The translations under genes and the position numbers were made by a program. Below the pieces are notes generated by a model that worked only from the letters and a program-made list of their open reading frames with translations, was not told where the DNA came from and ran no database searches. Positions 5,729-29,520 of a stretch of DNA of 34,174 nucleotides are shown here, piece by piece. The stretch's first letter is position 1; each line of letters starts with the position of its first letter. The stretch is taken from the IMG/VR virus record IMGVR_UViG_3300045988_124209, positions 1 to 34,174 of that record. The stretch is one strand, 5' to 3'. Source of the DNA: a virus.

Positions 5729-6553
5729 TTATCTAAATTTATCAAAATTCATCATTGGTGCTAATTCTTTGGTAGTTATTGTAATTTTTTGATTTAAATA
5801 TCCCTCAAATTTAGTTCCAAATAATGTTTCAGGTCTTAAATACTTATTCATATCTTTATTATTTAACCATTCTAAACATTTCTTATCAATTACTATCTTA
5901 AATTCTTTTGCAGTAAATCCTTCATTAAATCTTGCTTTAATTAAACTTTTAGTTTTATTAGTATTACTTCTATAATTAGTTCCTGCTTTAAAATTTAAAT
6001 AATTAATAATGTCTTCATAAGGAATACCATCTTGTTCTGCTTTAGCAGAATTATAAACTTTTATTTCTTTTATATTTTCTTTTATATTATTATCTATATT
6101 TTTTCTTTTAGTATTAATAATATTTATATTATTATATTTATTATTTAGTATTTTATTATTAGTATTTAATTGTCCTTGATTTTCTACATCTAGAAATTCT
6201 AGGGGTAGTTTTTCTACCTCTTGTTTTTCTACCTCTTGTTTTTCTACCTCTTGTTTTGGCTTTTCATAAATATTATAAATATAATCTATTCTTCCTGTTT
6301 CACTCTCGTTAGGCATTAATTTAATTACTTCTAAATATCCAATTTTTTTTAGTTCTGACAATGCATTCTTTATTGATGTTTCATTTTCTAAACTAATTGC
6401 TACTAAACCTGCTATTGAATAATCCCAATCTTCTGGTAAAGATAGCATTACACTCAATAACCCTTTTGCTTTTAAACTCATATTTTTTTCTTTTAAATGA
6501 TAATTACTCATTATCGTGTAATCTTTTGTTTTATTTACTTTGAATTTTGCCAT
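5729..6553 (-). CDS. replisome organizer / DnaD-domain replication protein
   Basis: ORF track. N-terminal winged-helix-like region. C-terminal YLNFKAGTNYRSNTNKTKSLIKARFNEGFTAKEFKIVIDKK...YLRPETLFGTKFEGYLNQ is the conserved phage DnaD-type C-terminus. Confidence 0.7.
   Translation of the reverse strand: MAKFKVNKTKDYTIMSNYHLKEKNMSLKAKGLLSVMLSLPEDWDYSIAGLVAISLENETSIKNALSELKKIGYLEVIKLMPNESETGRIDYIYNIYEKPKQEVEKQEVEKQEVEKLPLEFLDVENQGQLNTNNKILNNKYNNINIINTKRKNIDNNIKENIKEIKVYNSAKAEQDGIPYEDIINYLNFKAGTNYRSNTNKTKSLIKARFNEGFTAKEFKIVIDKKCLEWLNNKDMNKYLRPETLFGTKFEGYLNQKITITTKELAPMMNFDKFR
6209..6253. repeat. 3 x 15-bp perfect tandem repeat (tttttctacctcttg) inside the organizer gene
   Basis: Read directly from the sequence. 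It encodes (KQEVE)x3. Confidence 0.9.
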
Positions 6554-10797: not shown

Positions 10798-11104
10798 ATT
10801 TTTTAAGTAATTTCTTTATTTTTATATAATATTCTTCTGTTGGAGGTTGCAAACTTCTATTTAATTCTAAAAACAAATTATTTAATTCTATATAAGTCTT
10901 ATGGTCTGTTTTTTCTAAAATATGCAAATCTTCGTGTGATTTTTGAATTAACAAAGCATAATTGCTTATATCATTTGCTCCTCCATATACTTTTTTAAAG
11001 ATATGATGCCTAGTTAGAGGGCAATTTCTTGTTATTTTATATCCCATCCAGTCAATATCTTTTGTTTTATAAATTTTTAACATTAATTTAATATCTTTAT
11101 TCAT
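10796..11104 (-). CDS. small HNH endonuclease
   Basis: ORF track. TRHHIFKKVYGG..N..N..LL...H..LH. Confidence 0.55.
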   Translation of the reverse strand: MNKDIKLMLKIYKTKDIDWMGYKITRNCPLTRHHIFKKVYGGANDISNYALLIQKSHEDLHILEKTDHKTYIELNNLFLELNRSLQPPTEEYYIKIKKLLKK

Positions 11105-11943
11105 TAATACATTTGAATTCCGATTATTGTATGTCCAGGTATTCCTGCATAAGAATTAGCATCAGAATTATCATAATTCTTACTCTCTACCCATTCTAAC
11201 CAACCATCTTCAATAGTCTTAACTCTATATTTAACCCAACCTTTTGTTGATTTAATTTTAATCATATCAATTGGATTTCCATATAACCCAGCATAACTTG
11301 AGCCATCATTTTTTGAATAATCCTTTGAATTAACTTCATCTAACCATTGCCCATTTTTAATATGTGCTTTGTAGATTAATTCGCCAAATTGAGGTTTACA
11401 TCTAAATCCACTTATTACTTCATTATTTAGTCCTGCATACCCATCGTTTGTATGGTCGCATTTATTTACCTCTGGCAACCATTTATTGGTATATGCTTGA
11501 TAAGTAATAGTTCCTGTATAATCTTTTTTTATGGTAGGTAAATCATTATCTAAATAACTAGTAGGATTTATTCTAGCATTACCTTGCCATACTTCAAAAT
11601 GAAGATGACCGCCATTCGCATTTCCTGAATTTCCCATATAACCTAAGACTTGTCCTTTTTTAACATACTCGCCATTTCTTACGAATAGTCCTTTTTGCAT
11701 ATGAGCATATAGTGTATAATAGCCATTTCCGTGGTCTATTTTAACACAATTGCCGTAACTAGCATTACCTACACTACCTGGCATATTATCATATCCATCT
11801 TGAAAGAATATAATCTTGCCTTCACTATGTGCTATTACATTATCTAATGTATATCCTCCACCAACTATATCATTAGCAAGATGCCCACTATGATATTCTT
11901 GTGTAATTTCACAATTACCTTTCTCTAAAACTCTACACTTCAT
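11104..11943 (-). CDS. endolysin: M23 (LytM-type) peptidase plus three ChW-like cell-wall-binding repeats
   Basis: ORF track (listed as 11104..12003). Contains HxxxD-type and GGHLHFEV motifs. Repeats have the form W(L/V)(P/D/E)(E/W)VN/ES...D....(Y)AG. The start is moved to ATG 11943 (MKCRV...) because the upstream part lies inside the holin gene. ATG 11952 is also possible. Confidence 0.75.
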   Translation of the reverse strand: MKCRVLEKGNCEITQEYHSGHLANDIVGGGYTLDNVIAHSEGKIIFFQDGYDNMPGSVGNASYGNCVKIDHGNGYYTLYAHMQKGLFVRNGEYVKKGQVLGYMGNSGNANGGHLHFEVWQGNARINPTSYLDNDLPTIKKDYTGTITYQAYTNKWLPEVNKCDHTNDGYAGLNNEVISGFRCKPQFGELIYKAHIKNGQWLDEVNSKDYSKNDGSSYAGLYGNPIDMIKIKSTKGWVKYRVKTIEDGWLEWVESKNYDNSDANSYAGIPGHTIIGIQMY

Positions 11944-12127
11944 TATTATCATTTCCTTTCTTTTCAATTCCTTTTTGGTATTGTGTACCAAAATAAAATG
12001 CAATTATAATTTGAAATAAACTATAAAATTGTTCTCCTGTTACAATTTGTAAAAATGTTAATATTACAAATGCTATTGTCATTAATATTGTAACAAAAGA
12101 TTTAACATCAATTAATGCTTTTTTCAT
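11933..12127 (-). CDS. holin (two TM helices, charged C-terminus)
   Basis: ORF track. Lies directly upstream of the endolysin and overlaps it. Confidence 0.55.
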   Translation of the reverse strand: MKKALIDVKSFVTILMTIAFVILTFLQIVTGEQFYSLFQIIIAFYFGTQYQKGIEKKGNDNNEV

Positions 12128-17922: not shown

Positions 17923-19044
17923 TTACATCCCCATTCCATAATTGAAATCATTTTTAGAACCACCACTAAATGTTTTGATATTTTTTACCATTTGACCTAA
18001 TGGGTCTTGTTCTACATTAACATTATTTATTACATTGATGTTTGGACTTAAATTAGTACTTGTATTTCCATATAAATTAGGACTTAAACTAAACATATCA
18101 TCAAGCATTCCTCCGACTGTTGAATTAACTTGTCCTTTCATATCTTCCATACCTTCTTCTAAACCAACCATATTCATCTTACCTATCCAAGCAAATTCGG
18201 TTGATGGACTATGTATTCCAAATATGCCTTTAATTCCTTTTAATATAGAACTACCAATTCCTTTTATCTTATCTAATACCCAGTCCTTAGCATTCTTAAT
18301 GCCATTCCAAAGTCCAGTTAAAAGGTCTTTTCCACATTGCCACATAAGTTGAGGCATATTTTTAAAGTAATCTATTATTTTAACTACTATTTCTCCAACT
18401 CTTGCTAATAGTATAGGAATAGCATTTATTATACCAGCAACTAAACCACCTAATAATTTGAACCCAGCCTCTACAAATAAAGGCAAATTATCAATTAATA
18501 TAGGTATAGTACCTAATATAGCATCTATAATTATTGGTATTAATGTAGGCATTTGTTCGGCTAATAATTGCAATACAGTAGTTAGTCCCTGAACTAACGC
18601 TTGTACTATTTGCGGTATTGCTTGTACTAACCCCATTATCAATTGCACCGTGCCATCAACTAATGCAGGTAATAATTGATTAAGCATAGGAGTTATTAAT
18701 GGTATCATATTAGTCATTAATGTAGTTAATCCTGTTATTATTTGTGGTGCCATTTTTACTATTGCATTTGATATGTTTGTTCCAGCAGTAGTAAAGGTAC
18801 TTATTACTTCTTCGATGCCACCTGCACCACTTAGAAAATTACTAAATGCCGATTTTGCACTATTAACTGAGCCTGATATAGTACTCATCGCCTCATCACC
18901 AGTCGTACCAGTGATATCTAATTCTTCTTGAATTATATGGATAGCATTAAATACATCATTTAAATTAGAAATGTCATATTTAACTCCTGATATCTTTTCA
19001 GCATCAGCAAGTAATCTCTCCATCTCGGTTTTTGTACCACCGTA
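17923..19044 (-). CDS. tape measure protein, exon 3
   Basis: ORF track ORF 17923..19023, extended 7 codons upstream in frame (YGGTKTE-MERLLADAEKISGVKYDISNLNDV...). It has a Gly/Ala/Ile-rich TM-like core typical of tape measure proteins. Confidence 0.8.
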   Translation of the reverse strand, partial: YGGTKTEMERLLADAEKISGVKYDISNLNDVFNAIHIIQEELDITGTTGDEAMSTISGSVNSAKSAFSNFLSGAGGIEEVISTFTTAGTNISNAIVKMAPQIITGLTTLMTNMIPLITPMLNQLLPALVDGTVQLIMGLVQAIPQIVQALVQGLTTVLQLLAEQMPTLIPIIIDAILGTIPILIDNLPLFVEAGFKLLGGLVAGIINAIPILLARVGEIVVKIIDYFKNMPQLMWQCGKDLLTGLWNGIKNAKDWVLDKIKGIGSSILKGIKGIFGIHSPSTEFAWIGKMNMVGLEEGMEDMKGQVNSTVGGMLDDMFSLSPNLYGNTSTNLSPNINVINNVNVEQDPLGQMVKNIKTFSGGSKNDFNYGMGM

Positions 19045-19203
19045 CCTTGCATTCGATAGAGGCCGTTAATCTCCATCCGTTCTCTTATGAACTGCTATAT
19101 ATTTCTATATAGAGTAGACTATCTCTTCATCTCTTACGAGAGCCTCGCACTTCCACTCACTTGAGTGTACTTCCTTTCGGAATAGTCGTTACACTTTTTT
19201 AAA

Positions 19204-19695
19204 TTATTTCATATAAACGAATTTATAATTTTTTGTTTTTCCTCTTTTTCCAAATGTTTCTTTTTTCAACATTTGTGAAATATTAGAAATATTACAATTA
19301 AAATATTCTGCAACATCTTTTATTCTATTAAACATTAATTCTTCGCCATTTATATTTATTACCTTTATCTTTTCACTTCTTACACCAAAAGTATTAAATC
19401 TTGAATTTTGTTCCGAATAAGTAGCCCATCTTAAATTAGAAACATCATTATTTAATCTATTTCCATCTATATGGTCTACTGTGGGCTTGTTTTCCAAATT
19501 AGGTATGAAATTACTTGCCACTAATCTATGCAAAGTATACTTTCTTGGTTTATTGTCTTTCCATAAATCTATTTGATAATAACCACTATCTTTATTAATT
19601 GATGGGCTTAATATTTTTTTAGTAATATTGTTTTTTATTTTTCCTTTTTCATTAATAGAATAATTTTCGTTTTCTTTTAATATTTTCCATTTCAT
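19204..19695 (-). CDS. intron-encoded HNH homing endonuclease (NUMOD4-like N-terminus plus HNH_3-like core)
   Basis: ORF track. W..L..N..Y.IN..G.I.N, then HRLVASNFIPN...VDHIDGNRLNNDVSNLRWATYSEQN. GAGGTGG SD upstream. Confidence 0.8.
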   Translation of the reverse strand: MKWKILKENENYSINEKGKIKNNITKKILSPSINKDSGYYQIDLWKDNKPRKYTLHRLVASNFIPNLENKPTVDHIDGNRLNNDVSNLRWATYSEQNSRFNTFGVRSEKIKVININGEELMFNRIKDVAEYFNCNISNISQMLKKETFGKRGKTKNYKFVYMK

Positions 19696-19721
19696 TTTAC
19701 CACCTCGTTATATCTAATTTA

Positions 19722-19750
19722 ATTTTATCATAAATATAACAAGATGTCAA
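19722..19750 (-). promoter_or_regulatory. promoter-like TTGACA-17-TAAAAT inside intron B, upstream of the HNH ORF
   Basis: Minus strand: TTGACA (19750-19745), a 17-nt spacer, TAAAAT (19727-19722). Confidence 0.45.
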
Positions 19751-19838
19751 TAATTTAAACTTAGCACGGTATTGTCTCCAACTTTACTTGGTAAGAGTTC
19801 CACCGTTTTCACGAGGTTTTAATTGAGCTATTTTGTTA

Positions 19839-19860
19839 ACCCAATTTAAGGTTATCTAAC
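19839..19860 (-). CDS. tape measure protein, 22-nt micro-exon 2 (G TTA GAT AAC CTT AAA TTG GGT)
   Basis: Read directly from the sequence. It encodes (M)LDNLKLG, which is exactly the piece missing between exon 1 (...QNYT) and exon 3 (YGGTK...). Confidence 0.7.
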
Positions 19861-20173
19861 CATTTACACCCCTAGTTTCCTAGTATTTTAACACTTATTT
19901 AAAAGTGGGATTAGACTATATCTTTATCTCTTTGAGATAGTATGCACTTCCAATATCGTATCAATAGATATTGTACTGAGTAACGAACTCATAGTCGTTC
20001 GACCTTCCTATTTCTAGGCTTGGCACTGGATAACCATATCTTTTAGACTTAGGCTTCCCCAGTTAGCAAGATTATCTCAACAAATCATTTCCTACTTGTA
20101 TTTTAATCTCACACCCTTGATAAGGTTCACATACACTTACTTAATTATCACTAATTAAGCAGACATTAATTTT
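19861..20173 (-). ncRNA. group I intron A (about 313 nt, no ORF)
   Basis: R-like GGUCGAACGACUAUGAG (plus atagtcgtt at 19991-19999) and S-like AAAGAUAUAGUCUAAUCC (plus tagactata at 19912-19920) form P7 GACUAU/AUAGUC. A P8-like hairpin CAAUAUC/GAUAUUG is present. The GGAAGUGC block is shared with intron B. The intron ends in G (19861). P1 and the exact 5' splice site are uncertain. Confidence 0.6.
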
Positions 20174-20655
20174 ATCGTATAATTCTGCTTTGCAAAGCCT
20201 TGATAAGCATTTTGAATACTTTCTATTGCAGTACCGAACTTGTTTGAGTTGTCTGCCATATCTCGAATAGCCATATCGCCGACTTTGGCTGCCTCTGCAG
20301 TATCTCCACCTAAACTTTGTAACAAACTAGCACTAAATGAAGTAATTTGCTCCATATATTTATTAGCGTCTATTCCTGCTGTTGTATAGGCTTTTTTAGA
20401 ATTCTCTATAACTGTATCAGCACTATCTTTGAATAATGTTTCAACACCACCGATATTTTGCTCTAAATCAGCAACACCTTGTAAGGCATCTTTGCCAAGT
20501 CCTAATAAAGAACTACCAACTTTTTGAATTGCACTAGACATTAAATTACCAATAGCCACCGTACTTGCTTTCAATTTACTAGCGACACCATTAGTCTTTT
20601 TTTCTAGGTCTTTATCATCTCCTTTAAACTTGAAGATGACTTCTCCTCCATTCAT
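20174..20655 (-). CDS. tape measure protein, exon 1
   Basis: ORF track ORF 20155..20655. GGAGGTGGAATAA lies upstream of the ATG. The sequence ...IQNAYQGFAKQNYT is followed by intron-derived IKLMSA*. Confidence 0.8.
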
Positions 20656-24543: not shown

Positions 24544-25518
24544 CTATTTATTTAATTCTTTTATAGTAGCATTTATTTTTTTTATTTTAGCATTTGTTTT
24601 ATCTACCTCACTTCCATTTCCTAAATCTTCATATATTTTTTTATCATTTTTTAATTTAGTTCTTTTTAGTTGTAGGGCTTGTATCTTTTGCTTTTTTTCA
24701 TAATCTTCTTGCCACTCATCAGAATTATAATCGTTCTCTTGTATTTGGTCTTTATCCCAATATATAGTCCATTGATGTCTACAATTAGGATGACCTACAC
24801 CACCAGCAATTGCTTCTTCTTGTGGATAATATTTAATTCCATCAGAAGTATATCCACTCTTTCCCTCTTTACTATATATCTTACCTTGATAAGGCATACA
24901 TAAAGGGCAAGCAAATGTATGGGCTGGTAAGTATAAGAGTTCTTTCTCTAATAAATTAGCATCGTACATCGTTCTATTCCAACCTGCGTGATTTAGATTA
25001 GTATTATATAGCATTGAATTATAATCAGCAATGTTATGCCAACTTCTTACCGAGCCATCTTTATTATGGTATGGTATAGTTGCTTGCACTTCATCATATT
25101 TAGTTACTAGTTTAGATAAATAACTCTCTCTATCTATATAACTTTTATTTGCAGTTTTTCTTCTACCTTTATAATATTCATCAATGTTATATTTATATTT
25201 CTTTTCTACATTTTGGAATACTCTTTCGTTTGCTAATTCATATATTTGTTTATATTCAGCATCAGGATTTATTATCTTATTTCCCTCTAAATCTCTAGCC
25301 TTGATCATATCTTCGAGTTCTTTTATTCTTTCAGCCATATATTTATGGTCTACCTTTTCCCATATTTTTGTTGTTTCTTTTTTGAACTCTGATAGTGTTT
25401 TATTTTTATATAAGTAGTCGAAGAATACTCGTTTAGTTTCATACATTAGTTTATAATATTCATTTTTTGAATAGTAAGCACTATCTTCTATAAATAAACT
25501 AAATGGGTCTTTCTTCAT
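24544..25518 (-). CDS. head morphogenesis protein (SPP1 gp7 / Mu F-like)
   Basis: ORF track. Motifs CPLCMPYQGKIY and GHPNCRHQW. It follows the portal gene. Confidence 0.7.
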   Translation of the reverse strand: MKKDPFSLFIEDSAYYSKNEYYKLMYETKRVFFDYLYKNKTLSEFKKETTKIWEKVDHKYMAERIKELEDMIKARDLEGNKIINPDAEYKQIYELANERVFQNVEKKYKYNIDEYYKGRRKTANKSYIDRESYLSKLVTKYDEVQATIPYHNKDGSVRSWHNIADYNSMLYNTNLNHAGWNRTMYDANLLEKELLYLPAHTFACPLCMPYQGKIYSKEGKSGYTSDGIKYYPQEEAIAGGVGHPNCRHQWTIYWDKDQIQENDYNSDEWQEDYEKKQKIQALQLKRTKLKNDKKIYEDLGNGSEVDKTNAKIKKINATIKELNK

Positions 25519-26882
25519 TATACTTCTCCAAACTTAACTTGTATTTCTTCTTCTTCCTCTTTATTAGCATTAATTAATTCTTCTATTAATTTACTATTCT
25601 TTCCTACATAATCATCATCAATTAACTTATTAAGAATAGGTGTTATTATTTTAGCCTTTATGCTATACGGAACACTTCCAACACTTTGAATTCTATTTAA
25701 TACTTGAAGTTTCTTCATATCATCAAATTTATCATTTGCTCCATAATCCCAATTTAATTCAATAGGTATTAAATTAACTTGTATATTATTTGCTTGTTGT
25801 GCTTTAACAACATTTTCAAGTAAATGATTTATTTGAGGCTCTATTTGTGTCTTAATTGCCTCAATAGTCATATCAGAATTATTCTTACTTAAATCTATAC
25901 TATCAACATTTTGATAAGCATCTTTTTCATATCCGAATGTTGCAGGACTTAGTCCAGCCATTTGAATTACTTGATAATCGCAAAATTTAAATGAACTAAT
26001 ATATTCATTAAATCTAATATTACCTTGTAAAAACTCAAATAATTGGTGGTCTTTATCGCCAGGTAATAAAGTAAAGTAGTCTGCTAATTTACCTACTGAT
26101 AATGTATCTACCTTATAATGATTAGAAGCAGGTTGCCAATTAGTTACTATATCTCCACTTTGATAATGCTGACTTGTTACTATTTTGGTCTTAGTCTTTT
26201 CTATTTCATCAACAAAGGTATTGAATATTTCCATTTCTTCATTTAAGAACTTTTTACTATCTTTAAAGAAATTTTGACCTATATCTATATTGATTAGATT
26301 TTCATAAGGCAATATATACTTAGCAATGTATTCATTACCAGTTCTTAGATTAAATGTTCCTAAATCAATAGGTATTAATTTACCACCTTTATCTTCTTTG
26401 AATACTTCCATAGTCATATAAGTAATACCATTTTCTAACTTAATATTTCTATGAAGTTCGTATATATCTTCTTTAGTAACAAACTCTTGTATGATAGTAC
26501 CGCCTATTACTTTGTCATATTTTTGTACCAAATCATGAATATCTGATTTTTTGATGCATTCTAAATATATCTTATTATCAAATTTATTTATTAATATAAA
26601 ACTCTCTTCTTCATATACTGCTAATTCTAGGCTCTCTTTAAGTGTAGGCATTAACCAATTTATTGATAATCCCTCTGTCTGTGTTACTAAGTCTGAACCA
26701 AATATTTGATTAACTATATATGTAGCAACCTTTTTACCACTAGGGGCAATTATATAGTCATTTTTTTTATAAATATTAGGCTTTCCATTAGTTATACCAG
26801 GTTGAGTTACTGTTGCCTCTACTCTTATATATGGAGCCTCTAAATAGTTGTATGCTGATTTTAACCTTACTTGATTATTCAT
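25518..26882 (-). CDS. portal protein
   Basis: ORF track, 454 aa. Lies downstream of the terminase block and directly upstream of the gp7-like gene. Confidence 0.7.
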   Translation of the reverse strand: MNNQVRLKSAYNYLEAPYIRVEATVTQPGITNGKPNIYKKNDYIIAPSGKKVATYIVNQIFGSDLVTQTEGLSINWLMPTLKESLELAVYEEESFILINKFDNKIYLECIKKSDIHDLVQKYDKVIGGTIIQEFVTKEDIYELHRNIKLENGITYMTMEVFKEDKGGKLIPIDLGTFNLRTGNEYIAKYILPYENLINIDIGQNFFKDSKKFLNEEMEIFNTFVDEIEKTKTKIVTSQHYQSGDIVTNWQPASNHYKVDTLSVGKLADYFTLLPGDKDHQLFEFLQGNIRFNEYISSFKFCDYQVIQMAGLSPATFGYEKDAYQNVDSIDLSKNNSDMTIEAIKTQIEPQINHLLENVVKAQQANNIQVNLIPIELNWDYGANDKFDDMKKLQVLNRIQSVGSVPYSIKAKIITPILNKLIDDDYVGKNSKLIEELINANKEEEEEIQVKFGEV

Positions 26883-27567: not shown

Positions 27568-28068
27568 CTATTCCTCATATTTCCAAACAAAACCATATGC
27601 TGTTTTTCTTTCGCCTCTGCAACAATCATATATGTGGCATATATTTTTTAATTCTTTTTTTATTTCCCATATATTATTATATGTTTTTATATATTTACCT
27701 TTTGTATCAAATTTTTTTATTTTTTTCATTTTAATTAGCCCAGTTTCCAAAGCATGATGCGTATTGTATTTAATTGTACACCATTCTAAATTATCTATGT
27801 TGTTATTAGATGGATTTCCATCTTTATGATTTATAATTGGATAATTATTAGGGTTTGGTATAAATGCTTCAGCTACTAATCTGTGAACAAAAAATTTTTT
27901 GCCTTTTGAGTTTTTCAATAATGCAACTCTTTTATAACCATTTTTATCATCTAATAATCTTTCTTTTTCAAATTTGGTGTTATTATAATTTAAACTCTTG
28001 ACATTTCCTAAATTACTAATCAAATATTTATCCTCATAACCTTTAATCTCTTTCCAAATTTCTTTCAT
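27568..28068 (-). CDS. free-standing HNH endonuclease (NUMOD4-like plus HNH_3-like), paralog of the intron-encoded one
   Basis: ORF track. WKEIKGYEDKYLISNLGNVKS, then HRLVAEAFIPNP...INHKDGNPSNNNIDNLEW. Confidence 0.8.
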   Translation of the reverse strand: MKEIWKEIKGYEDKYLISNLGNVKSLNYNNTKFEKERLLDDKNGYKRVALLKNSKGKKFFVHRLVAEAFIPNPNNYPIINHKDGNPSNNNIDNLEWCTIKYNTHHALETGLIKMKKIKKFDTKGKYIKTYNNIWEIKKELKNICHIYDCCRGERKTAYGFVWKYEE

Positions 28069-28122: not shown

Positions 28123-28151
28123 AGTATAGCATATTTATCTAAATTATACAA
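28123..28151 (-). promoter_or_regulatory. promoter-like TTGTAT-17-(TGC)TATACT upstream of the HNH gene
   Basis: Minus strand hexamers at 28151-28146 and 28128-28123, with an extended -10 TG. Confidence 0.45.
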
Positions 28152-29520
28152 CAGGGCATTTATCTTGATTTTTCCAATTCTCTAATAGATATCTGGTTGC
28201 ATCTATGTTGTGGTCATTTTCTTTTACATAAGCCTCTTTACCTGTTTTAGCACTTGTCTTTAAGTCATATCTATAACTTTCTAATTCCAATATTCCCTCA
28301 TCTTTACTACTATATATTAATTCGCCATTGTCCGTTATATGTTTTATAGAATTTTGTTTATATATAAAGAAATATTTTTTGTAGAACAATGATTGCAAAT
28401 GCTGTACTCCTTCTACCACCGAACCTGGTCCTTTTACTGCTAAAGAATGTGGAATATTGTCTGCTAATAATCTATTATGAAAATGTGTTGCTTCACTATC
28501 TAATACTATTGTAGTTATAGGAACTTGTCCATACTCACTTTTAAGATACAACAAGAATAATCTTAATTGCTTGCTAAAATATTCAGTTGTAGGGTTGTCT
28601 TGTTCTTCTTTAGCGTTATGATAATATATTTCTAACCTAATCAATACCCATTTCTTTTCAACTTTATTATATGCCAGTGCAATTGGTACAAATGTAGTAG
28701 GGTTTGAATTTCCGTAGTCTATTCCTATTCCTATTTCTCTGAAAGCATAGTCATTTAAATCATTAATGATGTTTATTGTTGTAAAAATTTTTCCAGTTGC
28801 AAGCACCCATCTATTAAATATCTTTTGTTCTCTTAGATTTCCAGGAGGGAACATTTCTAATACCTTTCGCATTGCTTCTTCTGTTTTTATCTTAGGGTTG
28901 TCATAAGGGAAGAAAGAATAATGCTTAGCATAAGGCTTCTTATCTATGTAATCAATCTTGTATGGATGATTTTCTCCACCCTCAACATTGAATGAATGTA
29001 TAGTCTTTAAATAAGGATGGTCTGCATAAGATACTTGTCTACCAGGAAATTCATTAAATGGCTCTCTTAAATTATCTTGCGAATATATCCTGGCACTTTC
29101 ATCTATCCACTCAAATATCAAAGGTTTACCTAATATCTTATTAAATGCAAGTACATTATTAAAACCAAAAAAATAGTATCTAATATTATATATTTCAAGA
29201 TATTTATCATCAGTCTGCCACCTTAATATATAATCTCTTCCTTTTTCTAACTTCATATCATCTAGAAACTTTTTTAAAGGTTCTAAGATGTTACCTTTTA
29301 ATGTCTCTAAACTCCAACCTGTTATAGAACCGAAATAAGTTTCATTTGGATTATAGTTATACAAGGCTTGAGCATATAAGATGCACCCCAAACATATATC
29401 AAAGGTCTTGCCACTCTGTGTACTTCCTAATACATATATTTCAGTTAGATTAGGGCTAATTATATCATTTAGTAATTGACTTTGCTTTTTTGATAGTGTT
29501 AGATTTAGACTTGTTTCCAT
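28144..29520 (-). CDS. terL: terminase large subunit
   Basis: ORF track, 458 aa. Walker A is GSTQSGKT and Walker B-like is LIFEWIDE. GGGAG lies 7 nt upstream of the ATG. Confidence 0.85.
   Translation of the reverse strand: METSLNLTLSKKQSQLLNDIISPNLTEIYVLGSTQSGKTFDICLGCILYAQALYNYNPNETYFGSITGWSLETLKGNILEPLKKFLDDMKLEKGRDYILRWQTDDKYLEIYNIRYYFFGFNNVLAFNKILGKPLIFEWIDESARIYSQDNLREPFNEFPGRQVSYADHPYLKTIHSFNVEGGENHPYKIDYIDKKPYAKHYSFFPYDNPKIKTEEAMRKVLEMFPPGNLREQKIFNRWVLATGKIFTTINIINDLNDYAFREIGIGIDYGNSNPTTFVPIALAYNKVEKKWVLIRLEIYYHNAKEEQDNPTTEYFSKQLRLFLLYLKSEYGQVPITTIVLDSEATHFHNRLLADNIPHSLAVKGPGSVVEGVQHLQSLFYKKYFFIYKQNSIKHITDNGELIYSSKDEGILELESYRYDLKTSAKTGKEAYVKENDHNIDATRYLLENWKNQDKCPVV

What the first reader, a model, noticed from the sequence alone, without database searches (positions are those of the whole stretch)
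19045..20173. Tape measure gene split by two tandem group I introns flanking a 22-nt micro-exon
**What the sequence shows.** The tape measure protein appears in the track as two ORFs, 20155..20655 and 17923..19023. They are 1.1 kb apart, and an HNH ORF lies between them.

The intervening non-coding DNA holds two separate group I catalytic cores:
- Two R-like elements AACGACUAU (plus atagtcgtt at 19991-19999 and 19182-19190).
- Two S-like elements AGAUAGUCUA (plus tagactat at 19912-19919 and 19115-19122).
- Each pair can form a P7 helix GACUAU/AUAGUC.

Between the two cores the minus strand reads G TTA GAT AAC CTT AAA TTG GGT (19860..19839).

**Proposed splice.** I join three pieces:
- Exon 1, ending ...CAG AAT TAT ACG AT at 20174.
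- The 22-nt micro-exon.
- Exon 3, starting TAC GGT GGT ACA AAA ACC GAG ATG at 19044.

This gives ...AYQGFAKQNYTMLDNLKLGYGGTKTEMERLLADAEKISG... in one frame. The lengths are 482 + 22 + 1122 = 1626 nt, or 541 aa plus the stop.

**Support.**
- From memory, that motif is the most conserved block of XkdO/TP901-type tape measure proteins.
- Both 5' exons end in U and both introns end in G.
- Intron B has a clean 8-bp P1: AAUUGGGU pairs with GCUCAAUU, with a U.G wobble at the splice site.
- Intron B has GNRA-capped hairpins (UUCC-GAAA-GGAA, CUAUAUA-GAAA-UAUAUAG, UCUC-GUAA-GAGA).
- The two introns share blocks such as UGGAAGUGC, so they look paralogous.

Two self-splicing introns 22 nt apart inside a structural tail gene is an unusual arrangement. 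I cannot say from memory whether it has been described before.
Basis: partly seen in the sequence, partly recalled or inferred. Interest (0 to 1): 0.85.

Follow-up and report, generated by a model that had tools for sequence, protein, structure and literature searches.

The report
Two introns splitting a tail gene

Summary
On the minus strand the tape measure gene runs as follows:
- exon 1, 20655-20174
- intron A, 20173-19861 (313 nt, no ORF)
- a 22-nt exon, 19860-19839
- intron B, 19838-19045 (794 nt, with an I-HmuI-like HNH endonuclease gene in the P6 loop)
- exon 3, 19044-17923

The predicted 541-aa product is 93-94% identical over its full length to uninterrupted homologues that carry exactly ...NYTMLDNLKLGYGGT...

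Close relatives show every combination of occupancy: no intron, A only, B only, and both. This rules out a single large intron or a twintron.

Both introns match the Rfam group I model below its curated cut-off (43.0 and 27.6 bits; E 2.7e-9 and 1.1e-4). Their helices are supported by many compensatory changes: 25 of 81 pairs in A and 22 of 58 in B.

Splicing itself is inferred, not shown.

The arrangement is not new in kind:
- Group I introns in tape measure genes were described in 2008.
- Phage Twort orf142, a tail tube gene, has a 23-nt exon between two group I introns.
- Streptococcus phage Javan271 has the same two sites occupied, with the endonuclease gene in the other intron.

Verdict: a new member of a known kind, of moderate interest.

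The parts
20174..20655 (-). Exon 1 of the tape measure gene (482 nt; 160 codons plus AT of the Met-161 codon)
   Evidence: ORF listing. The spliced product matches PHROG tape measure families, e.g. phrog_6900 at E 1.4e-69. It ends ...ACGAT. The Thr codon before the splice site is ACG in 16/16 alleles with intron A, against 2/14 alleles without it.
19861..20173 (-). Intron A: ORF-less group I intron, 313 nt, IA-like. Helices: IGS 20169-20162 (UUAAU for P10 + GUC for P1); P2 20160-20139; P3 20134-20129 with 19945-19940; P4-P6 20063-20003; P7 19996-19991 with 19919-19914; P7.1 19990-19978; P7.2 19973-19951; P8 19939-19925. The final base is G at 19861.
   Evidence: RF00028 at 43.0 bits, E 2.7e-9, full model. 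Present or absent as a unit in relatives. 81 pairs are 97.9% paired and 25 show compensatory change, against 1-3 in slid controls. Relatives carry an HNH gene, or remnants of one, in the P8 loop.
19839..19860 (-). 22-nt micro-exon GUUAGAUAACCUUAAAUUGGGU. It encodes the G of Met-161 plus LDNLKLG.
   Evidence: Sequence. The same peptide is contiguous in uninterrupted homologues. Three micro-exon haplotypes occur in tandem-intron loci, and all differences between them are synonymous. Its first 5 nt pair with the IGS of intron A (P10). Its last 8 nt pair with the IGS of intron B (P1).
19045..19838 (-). Intron B: group I intron, 794 nt, IA-like, with an endonuclease gene in the P6 loop. Helices: IGS 19828-19821; P3 19816-19811 with 19148-19143; P4-P5 19806-19766; P6 19759-19751 with 19206-19198; P7 19187-19182 with 19122-19117; P7.1 about 19181-19171; P7.2 19167-19154; P8 19141-19130; P9 19112-19095; P9.1 19077-19055. 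The final base is G at 19045.
   Evidence: RF00028 at 27.6 bits, E 1.1e-4, for the 3' part only. An ORF-less homologue at the same site in Javan271 scores 43.3 bits over the full model. 58 pairs are 94.6% paired and 22 are compensatory, against 3-6 in slid controls. P1 covaries with the exon in four exon/IGS combinations.
19204..19695 (-). HNH homing endonuclease gene (163 aa) inside intron B. It is preceded by GAGGUGG, 5 nt upstream of the ATG. Its stop codon lies within the 3' strand of P6.
   Evidence: Pfam NUMOD4 E 7.9e-7 and HNH_3 E 7e-12, both above their cut-offs. phrog_59 HNH endonuclease E 9.4e-39. I-HmuI structure 1U3E E 2.1e-14 over residues 1-95.
17923..19044 (-). Exon 3 of the tape measure gene (1122 nt including the stop). 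It starts at a codon boundary with TAC GGT GGT (YGG).
   Evidence: The C-terminal fragments that gene callers produced from relatives start at MYGGTK... or MERLL....

Best explanation
The tape measure gene of this roughly 34-kb phage of an uncultured low-GC Bacilli host carries two independent mobile group I introns. They sit at two homing sites 22 bp apart, in the most conserved block of the protein.

**Proposed mechanism (inferred)**
- Each intron folds on its own and recognises its own 5' splice site through its own guide sequence.
- Intron A uses GAU/GUC, then P10 with the first 5 nt of the micro-exon.
- Intron B uses AAUUGGGU/GCUCAAUU, the last 8 nt of the micro-exon.
- The two pairings use different parts of the 22-nt exon, so the introns can splice in either order.
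- The result is a 1626-nt mRNA for a 541-aa tape measure protein.

**Mobility (inferred)**
- Intron B encodes an I-HmuI-like HNH endonuclease that presumably drives homing into intron-less alleles.
- Intron A is a derivative that has lost its endonuclease gene. Being 22 bp away, it is likely to be co-converted together with B.

**Shown versus inferred**
- Shown: the boundaries, the independent presence or absence of each intron, the conserved helices, and the coding continuity.
- Inferred: self-splicing, the order of splicing, endonuclease activity, and co-mobilisation.
For: **Coding continuity**
- The predicted product is 94% and 93% identical, over 100% of its length, to uninterrupted proteins P0001 and P0002. 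These contain ...AYQGFAKQNYTMLDNLKLGYGGTKTEMERLL....
- The intron-less DNA allele L004 reads acgat|gttagataatttaaaactcggt|tatggt.

**Independent occupancy**
- Among 23 close relatives, counting the window, 8 have A and B, 5 have A only, 3 have B only and 7 have neither.
- Published phages show the same sites:
  - Javan271: A with HNH + micro-exon + ORF-less B.
  - Javan520 and proPhi7: B only.
  - Lactococcus phage 38502: A only.
  - Streptococcus phage MissG1: B only.

**RNA evidence**
- Rfam group I matches for both introns, and for an ORF-less homologue of B.
- Compensatory changes in P2, P3, P4, P6, P7.1, P7.2, P8 and P9.1 of A.
- Compensatory changes in P6, P7.2, P8, P9 and P9.1 of B.
- P1 of B covaries with the exon: AAUUGGGU/GCUCAAUU, ACUGGGU/GCUCAGU, GUUGGGU/GCCCAAC.
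- The exon G that pairs in P1 of A (Thr codon ACG) is present in 16/16 alleles with A, against 2/14 without it.

**Translation of the micro-exon**
- Micro-exon haplotypes in tandem-intron loci differ only synonymously.

**Endonuclease**
- HNH domains and similarity to I-HmuI.

**Independent assembly**
- The same DNA occurs on another contig.
Against: - There are no RNA data, so splicing is not observed.
- Both Rfam scores are below the 50-bit gathering cut-off. Whole-window scans find nothing.
- P1 of intron A is only 3 bp (4 with an adjacent A-U) and is invariant, so it has no covariation support of its own.
- P10 of intron B is at most 2 bp.
- Intron A has an unusual insertion of about 65 nt (two hairpin elements) between P3 and P4, which I could not place in a named subgroup.
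- The helices were partly derived from the same sequences on which they were counted.
- Pairs of ORF-less introns exist in relatives (L011-L013, L019). Co-mobilisation with a neighbouring endonuclease gene is therefore not required for persistence.
Confidence: 0.88

Rival explanations
1. One large intron, or a twintron, spans 20173-19045. On this reading the micro-exon-like 22 nt is intron sequence that merely resembles the missing codons.
For: The two catalytic cores lie close together and share P7 sequences (GACUAU/AUAGUC in both). Exon skipping across two group I introns is documented in Twort and in engineered constructs (PMC10136302).
Against: - Joining exon 1 directly to exon 3 shifts the frame and stops after about 28 codons.
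- Alleles with only A or only B exist, with the 22 nt contiguous with the neighbouring exon.
- The 22 nt vary only synonymously.
- The P3 strands of A and B are not cross-complementary: GUAUGU/GCAUAC against CCUCGU/GCGAGG.
Confidence: 0.03
2. The gene is dead. One or both introns no longer splice, the tape measure protein is not made, and the element is a defective phage or a tailless particle.
For: - No expression data exist.
- Intron A has lost its endonuclease gene and has a very short P1.
- Both Rfam scores are below the curated cut-off.
Against: - All core helices are intact in the window. The window's own sequence is the reference for structures that are 97.9% and 94.6% paired across the alignments.
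- Both exons are open and 93-94% identical to intact homologues, with no frameshift.
- The remaining genes of the head, tail, lysis and replication modules are open.
- The same tandem state recurs in at least 8 related contigs and in Javan271.
Confidence: 0.06
3. The two gene halves work as separate polypeptides without splicing. The intervening DNA is a free-standing endonuclease cassette with remnants of intron sequence.
For: Free-standing HNH genes do occur in this genome. One lies at 27568-28068, next to the terminase gene, with no intron signal. Public annotations of related phages list two tape measure CDSs.
Against: - The break falls inside the most conserved motif, and 7 residues would be lost.
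- Exon 3 has no start codon of its own at its true beginning. The first ATG, at 19023, is 7 codons in.
- The intervening DNA has complete, covarying ribozyme cores with exact boundaries.
Confidence: 0.03

Closest known systems
Staphylococcus phage Twort orf142 (tail tube gene), introns I2 and I3 (Landthaler & Shub 1999, as summarised in PMC10136302 and PMC11878797)
   Same: It is a phage tail structural gene in which two self-splicing subgroup IA group I introns flank a very short exon: 23 nt there, 22 nt here.
   Different: - Twort I2 and I3 are described as highly similar, and exon skipping was observed.
- Here the two introns are only about 49% identical, with different guide sequences and different P3 helices.
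- Skipping here would destroy the reading frame.
- No splicing data exist for the window.
- The original Twort paper was not available to me.
Group I introns TMP-IVS1, IVS2 and IVS3 in tape measure genes of Bacillus cereus-group prophages (Tourasse & Kolsto 2008, PMC2504315)
   Same: - The same target gene, and IA1/IA2-type introns.
- Several insertion sites per gene.
- Different introns occupy one site, as with the B1 and B2 families here.
- Guide sequences are adapted to each site, and variants occur with and without an endonuclease gene.
   Different: - That text does not report two introns separated by a micro-exon.
- As described there, IVS1 and IVS2 occur in different strains.
- I could not establish whether IVS1 and IVS2 correspond to sites A and B.
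Streptococcus phage Javan271 (MK448723), tape measure region
   Same: It has the same two insertion sites, the same 22-nt exon encoding (M)LDNLKLG, and homologous intron families A and B1.
   Different: - The endonuclease gene sits in intron A (P8 loop) and intron B is ORF-less. This is the reverse of the window.
- The public record annotates only 'minor tail protein' fragments and 'HNH homing endonuclease # Phage intron'. It does not annotate the two introns or the micro-exon.
Bastillevirinae phage introns (PMC11878797) and the Coxiella burnetii 23S rRNA introns (cited in PMC10136302)
   Same: - Genes are split by two or three group I introns.
- A small exon between two introns was found by cDNA sequencing in the phiNIT1 ribonucleotide reductase gene.
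- A 34-nt exon lies between two introns in Coxiella.
   Different: The host genes differ (DNA metabolism, terminase, rRNA). In those cases splicing was shown experimentally.
I-HmuI (phage SPO1 intron-encoded HNH nicking endonuclease, PDB 1U3E)
   Same: The N-terminal 95 residues of the window's endonuclease align with it at E 2.1e-14. The window protein has the NUMOD4 + HNH_3 domains.
   Different: The similarity covers only the N-terminal and catalytic part. The target site and any nicking activity are untested.

Membership tests
Group I intron (Rfam RF00028) | Covariance-model score at or above the curated gathering score (50 bits) | tested here: inconclusive
   - Scores are 43.0 bits (E 2.7e-9, full model) for A and 27.6 bits (E 1.1e-4, 3' part only) for B. 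Both are below 50 bits.
- Nothing is found at the gathering threshold or in the whole-window E-value scan.
- The model cannot bridge the 492-nt ORF in P6 of B or the roughly 65-nt insertion in A.
- The ORF-less homologue of B scores 43.3 bits.
Group I intron | 5' splice site after a U that forms a U.G pair in P1 with an internal guide sequence | tested here: met
   - B: AAUUGGGU/GCUCAAUU, 8 bp, covarying with the exon in relatives.
- A: GAU/GUC, only 3 bp and invariant. It is supported by the ACG codon in 16/16 alleles with A, against 2/14 without it.
Group I intron | Intron ends in G (omega G) and excision is exact | tested here: met
   Both introns end in G. The boundaries are fixed uniquely by intron-less alleles.
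Group I intron | Conserved core P3-P8 with the P3/P7 pseudoknot | tested here: met
   - A: 81 pairs, 97.9% paired, 25 compensatory.
- B: 58 pairs, 94.6% paired, 22 compensatory.
- P7 is invariant in both. P3 of A has 2 compensatory pairs. P3 and P4 of B are invariant.
Group I intron | Self-splicing started by exogenous guanosine | not testable with these tools
   This needs in vitro transcription with GTP and Mg2+, or RNA from infected cells.
Subgroup IA (IA2-like phage introns) | Extra hairpins P7.1 and P7.2 between P7 and the 3' strand of P3 | tested here: met
   - A: GAGU..ACUC and CAAUAUC..GAUAUUG, both with compensatory changes.
- B: UCC-GAAA-GGA, read from the sequence only, and CACUC..GAGUG, the latter with compensatory changes.
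- A formal assignment to IA1 or IA2 was not made.
HNH homing endonuclease, I-HmuI type | NUMOD4 and HNH domains; encoded inside an intron loop | tested here: met
   Pfam NUMOD4 29.6 bits (cut-off 23.4) and HNH_3 45.2 bits (cut-off 24.8). 1U3E at E 2.1e-14. The ORF lies between the strands of P6, which has 5 compensatory pairs.
HNH homing endonuclease, I-HmuI type | Cleaves or nicks the intron-less allele near the insertion site | not testable with these tools
   This needs the purified protein and an L004-type target.
Tail length tape measure protein | Sequence membership and position in the tail module | tested here: met
   The spliced product matches phrog_6900 (E 1.4e-69), phrog_58 (E 1.7e-63) and other tape measure families. 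It lies between tail-module ORFs and a 1002-aa downstream ORF.
Twintron (intron inside an intron) | One intron interrupts the other, with no exon between them | tested here: not met
   A conserved coding 22-nt exon lies between them. Each intron also occurs alone in relatives.
Twort orf142-type tandem introns | Two group I introns separated by an exon of about 20-35 nt in one phage gene | tested here: met
   The exon is 22 nt. The Twort exon is 23 nt (PMC10136302).
Twort orf142-type tandem introns | The two introns are highly similar, and exon skipping occurs | tested here: not met
   The cores are about 49% identical in a global alignment, and the guide sequences and P3 differ. Exon skipping cannot be tested here, and it would shift the frame.

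The most novel reading that the evidence does not exclude
The two introns behave as one mobile unit served by a single endonuclease gene.
- The ORF-less partner is carried along by co-conversion, because it lies 22 bp from the cleavage target of its neighbour.
- The endonuclease gene can sit in either partner: intron B in this window, intron A in Javan271.
- Together with a third site 69 nt upstream of site A, this would make the conserved tape measure motif a three-site arena where several intron families compete and hitch-hike.

A related untested possibility is that some exon skipping occurs and lowers tape measure protein output.
Probability: 0.25. Interest if true: 0.55.

Novelty: new member of a known kind. 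Interest (0 to 1): 0.4.

Why it matters
**Annotation**
- Gene callers and public records split this gene into two 'tape measure' or 'minor tail protein' fragments and miss the 22-nt exon entirely.
- Whole-genome Rfam scans miss both introns.
- Assemblies break at these polymorphic sites.

**Biology**
- The locus and its relatives give a compact natural series at two sites 22 bp apart, plus a third site 69 nt upstream of site A. The states seen are none, A, B, A+B, and C+A+B.
- The endonuclease genes appear in every stage of decay.
- Such a series could be used to study how neighbouring homing sites interact and how guide sequences track synonymous exon variation.
- It could also show how tandem introns avoid exon skipping.

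It does not reveal a new mechanism.

Tried and rejected
**Searches that found nothing**
- Whole-window Rfam scans at the gathering threshold and at E up to 0.1 found no match. The introns appear only in a 1.4-kb search.
- An exact-pattern scan for the A-end + micro-exon + B1-start junction found 0 matches in IMG/VR and 0 in JGI metagenomes. The pattern does match the window.
- The same DNA was found instead through the exact HNH protein.
- Rfam found no match for the second intron family at site B (B2, e.g. L011, L014, L022) and only 14.7 bits for the site C intron. I left B2 unclassified.

**Hypotheses rejected**
- A second intron in the terminase gene, suggested by another HNH gene at 27568-28068. 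The terminase ORF ends normally, the downstream 129-aa ORF has no terminase match, and there is no group I signal.
- An alternative P3 for intron A (GAGAUA at about 20078 with UAUCUC of P8). Javan271 changes one strand without the other.
- Rfam's own placement of P3 in intron A. It has mismatches. GUAUGU/GCAUAC is supported instead by GUGUGU/GCACAC and GUACGU/GCGUAC in relatives.
- Recent duplication as the origin of the two introns.

**Literature**
- The original Twort paper (PMC22036) is not held, so I relied on later papers for the 23-nt exon.
- Searches on micro-exons with phages returned only eukaryotic work.
- Searches on tape measure introns in Streptococcus found no description of this arrangement.
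Full report
**1. What is in the sequence**

The window is AT-rich (27% G+C), and nearly all ORFs of 90 aa or more lie on the minus strand. PHROG matches identify these phage genes:
- terminase large subunit (28144-29520)
- portal protein (25518-26882)
- minor head protein (24544-25518)
- an endolysin/peptidase (11104-12003)
- a replication initiation protein (5729-6553)

The nearest relatives are contigs of about 31-33 kb. Among species-representative genomes the closest match is a MAG labelled 'Bacilli bacterium'.

In the tail module, a 166-aa ORF (20155-20655) and a 366-aa ORF (17923-19023) flank a 163-aa ORF (19204-19695). That middle ORF carries Pfam NUMOD4 and HNH_3 domains. The join of 482 + 22 + 1122 nt gives a 541-aa product. 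This product matches PHROG tape measure families, for example phrog_6900 at E 1.4e-69 and phrog_58 at E 1.7e-63.

**2. Are the proposed splice junctions right?**

A search of the protein collection with the spliced product returned many uninterrupted proteins of 541-564 aa. The best are 94% and 93% identical over 100% of the query. All of those inspected contain ...AYQGFAKQNYTMLDNLKLGYGGTKTEMERLL... without a break.

The DNA of one such allele (L004) reads cagaactatacgat|gttagataatttaaaactcggt|tatggtggt. Given this target, the boundaries in the window are unique:
- exon 1 ends ...ACGAU
- intron A runs from AAAAUU... to ...UAAAUG
- the micro-exon is GUUAGAUAACCUUAAAUUGGGU
- intron B runs from UAACAAAA... 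to ...GCAAGG
- exon 3 starts UACGGU

Joining exon 1 directly to exon 3 shifts the frame and stops after about 28 codons.

**3. Two introns, not one**

I fetched 80 viral contigs and 54 genome contigs that encode the N-terminal fragment. I then mapped the three peptide landmarks on each.

Occupancy among 23 close relatives, counting the window:

| State | Loci |
|---|---|
| A and B | 8 |
| A only | 5 |
| B only | 3 |
| neither | 7 |

Published phage genomes show the same sites:
- Streptococcus phages Javan520 and MissG1, and Lactococcus phage proPhi7, have only a site B intron.
- Lactococcus phage 38502 has only a site A intron.
- Streptococcus phage Str-PAP-1 has a site A intron plus another intron about 60 nt upstream.
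- Streptococcus phage Javan271 has the full tandem arrangement, with the same 22-nt exon.

In Javan271 the endonuclease gene sits in intron A and intron B is ORF-less, the reverse of the window. The micro-exon occurs as three haplotypes in tandem-intron loci, and every difference between them is synonymous. It therefore appears to be under selection as coding sequence. These observations exclude a single large intron or a twintron.

**4. Are they group I introns?**

*Rfam.* At its gathering score Rfam finds nothing in the window, and the whole-window E-value scan also finds nothing. Restricted to 18900-20300, RF00028 matches as follows:
- 20134-19893 over the full model, at 43.0 bits (E 2.7e-9)
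- 19226-19095 for the 3' part only, at 27.6 bits (E 1.1e-4)

The ORF-less homologue of intron B in Javan271 matches the full model at 43.3 bits. The upstream intron of Str-PAP-1 reaches 82.1 bits.

*Intron A helices.* I derived helices by hand and counted them on alignments with the ORFs removed. The alignment holds 8 sequences from four lineages. Of 81 pairs, 97.9% of cells are standard pairs and 25 pairs show changes on both sides. Versions slid by 1-3 columns give 1-3 such pairs and 34-41% pairing.
- P3 is GUAUGU/GCAUAC in the window, GUGUGU/GCACAC in Javan271 and GUACGU/GCGUAC in the Lactococcus and Str-PAP-1 introns.
- P2, P4, P6, P7.1, P7.2, P8 and P9.1 also covary.

*Intron B helices.* The alignment holds 6 sequences. 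Of 58 pairs, 94.6% of cells are paired and 22 are compensatory, against 3-6 in slid versions.
- P6, which brackets the endonuclease gene, has five compensatory pairs.
- P3, P4 and P7 never vary, so they are uninformative.

*Subgroup.* Both introns have hairpins P7.1 and P7.2 between P7 and the 3' strand of P3, the mark of subgroup IA. Intron A also has an insertion of about 65 nt (two hairpin elements) between P3 and P4. I could not match this to a named subgroup.

*Caveat.* The structures were built partly from these same sequences. That inflates the percentage paired, but not the number of compensatory pairs relative to the slid controls.

**5. Splice-site recognition**

*Intron B.*
- Its guide sequence pairs with the last 8 nt of the micro-exon (AAUUGGGU/GCUCAAUU).
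- In relatives the exon and the guide change together: ACUGGGU/GCUCAGU and GUUGGGU/GCCCAAC.
- A second, unrelated intron family at the same site (B2) pairs ACUCGGU/GCCGAGU. It also has a 6-bp P10.

*Intron A.*
- It has only GAU/GUC, or 4 bp counting an adjacent A-U, followed by a 5-bp P10 between UUAAU and the first 5 nt of the micro-exon (GUUAG).
- The P1 pairs never vary. However, the exon G in this helix is the third base of a Thr codon.
- That codon is ACG in 16 of 16 alleles with intron A. It is ACG in only 2 of 14 alleles without it; the others are ACC, ACA or ACT.
- This fits either a requirement for the pair or co-conversion of flanking exon sequence during homing.

P10 of A and P1 of B use non-overlapping parts of the 22-nt exon, so nothing in the sequence forces an order of splicing.

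**6. The endonuclease genes**
- The window's 163-aa protein aligns with I-HmuI (PDB 1U3E) at E 2.1e-14 over its first 95 residues.
- It is 93% identical to the protein in the homologous intron of L025 and 47-54% identical to those of the other site B introns. It is only about 37% identical to the endonucleases found in site A introns.
- In site A introns the gene sits in the P8 loop.
- Relatives show an intact gene (L015, 160 aa), a truncated one (L017, 79-aa ORF), short remnants (L016 and L022, 387-388 nt introns) and complete loss (the window and L018, 313-314 nt). This is the familiar decay series of homing endonuclease genes.
- The two ribozyme cores in the window are about 49% identical in a global alignment.
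- The blocks they share also occur in introns of Staphylococcus, Bacillus and other phages. They belong to one broad group of phage IA introns but are not recent duplicates.

**7. Mechanism proposed**
- Shown: the exact boundaries, the independent occurrence of each intron, the conserved and covarying ribozyme helices, coding continuity, and an apparently intact endonuclease gene with a ribosome-binding site.
- Inferred from established knowledge of group I introns and of I-HmuI-type enzymes:
  - each intron self-splices;
  - the mRNA encodes a 541-aa tape measure protein;
  - the HNH enzyme nicks or cuts intron-less alleles during mixed infection or in lysogens;
  - repair copies intron B into the cut allele;
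  - intron A, 22 bp away, would usually lie inside the co-conversion tract.
- The last step is speculative. Pairs of ORF-less introns also exist (L011-L013, L019).

**8. Comparison with what is known**
- Tourasse and Kolsto (2008, PMC2504315) described IA1/IA2 group I introns at three sites in tape measure genes of Bacillus cereus-group prophages. They noted different introns at one site and guide sequences adapted to each site.
- Twort orf142 is now considered a tail tube gene (PMC11878797). [quoted passage not shown]
- The same paper cites a 34-nt exon between two introns in Coxiella 23S rRNA.
- Bastillevirinae phages have genes with two or three introns, a small exon between two introns, and exon skipping.
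- Among 379 GenBank phage records with a homologue of this region, 365 are uninterrupted over at least 80% of the query. Interruption is therefore uncommon but already present in public data.

The window is a new example of a known arrangement. Two things are possibly new as observations: the site-by-site polymorphism in one phage lineage, and the reciprocal placement of the endonuclease gene in Javan271. I found no paper describing either.

**9. Verdict**
- Confidence in the architecture and in productive splicing is 0.88.
- Interest is 0.4.
- Novelty: a new member of a known kind.

Noticed in passing
Window 20251|20250 (minus strand, between codons D and N of DMAD|NSNKFG); relatives L022 3406-3829, L023, L024, L025, L005 1-42: A third intron insertion site lies 69 nt upstream of site A. 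It is empty in the window. In several close relatives it holds a further intron with AACGACUAU and GAGAUAGUCUA core motifs and a GUCCG guide sequence. L022-L024 therefore carry three introns within about 90 nt of coding sequence. Str-PAP-1 has a different intron, with a GIY-YIG-like endonuclease ORF (Rfam 82 bits), a few codons further downstream.
   Followed up: partly
L011 3819-4050, L014 3505-3741, L022 4312-4543, L006 1-755: A second, unrelated intron family (B2, about 232 nt; with an HNH ORF in L006) occupies exactly site B. It has a 7-bp P1 (ACUCGGU/GCCGAGU) and a 6-bp P10 (UAUGGU/ACCAUA). It gives no Rfam match at E up to 1 and remains unclassified.
   Followed up: partly
Window 27568-28068 (minus strand): A second HNH endonuclease gene of the same PHROG family (phrog_59, E 6.8e-49) lies directly downstream of the terminase large subunit gene. 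The terminase ORF ends normally and there is no group I signal, so it appears free-standing.
   Followed up: yes
L005 position 1; L006 position 1: Metagenome contigs of related phages begin inside or right next to these introns. This suggests that assemblies break where intron-plus and intron-minus variants coexist. It also produces truncated 'proteins' starting MLDNLKLG..., MYGGTK... or MERLL..., each representing tens to hundreds of member sequences in the protein collection.
   Followed up: no
Whole window: Rfam scans of the whole 34-kb window miss both introns, at the gathering score and at E up to 0.1. A 1.4-kb scan finds them at E 2.7e-9 and 1.1e-4. The speed filters, not the scores, decide detection here.
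   Followed up: yes
L003 4781-6094 (Lactococcus phage proPhi7): An IS element (integrase/transposase plus an IstB-like helper) is annotated just upstream of the intron-split tape measure gene in proPhi7. Whether this relates to any tail defect of that prophage was not examined.
   Followed up: no
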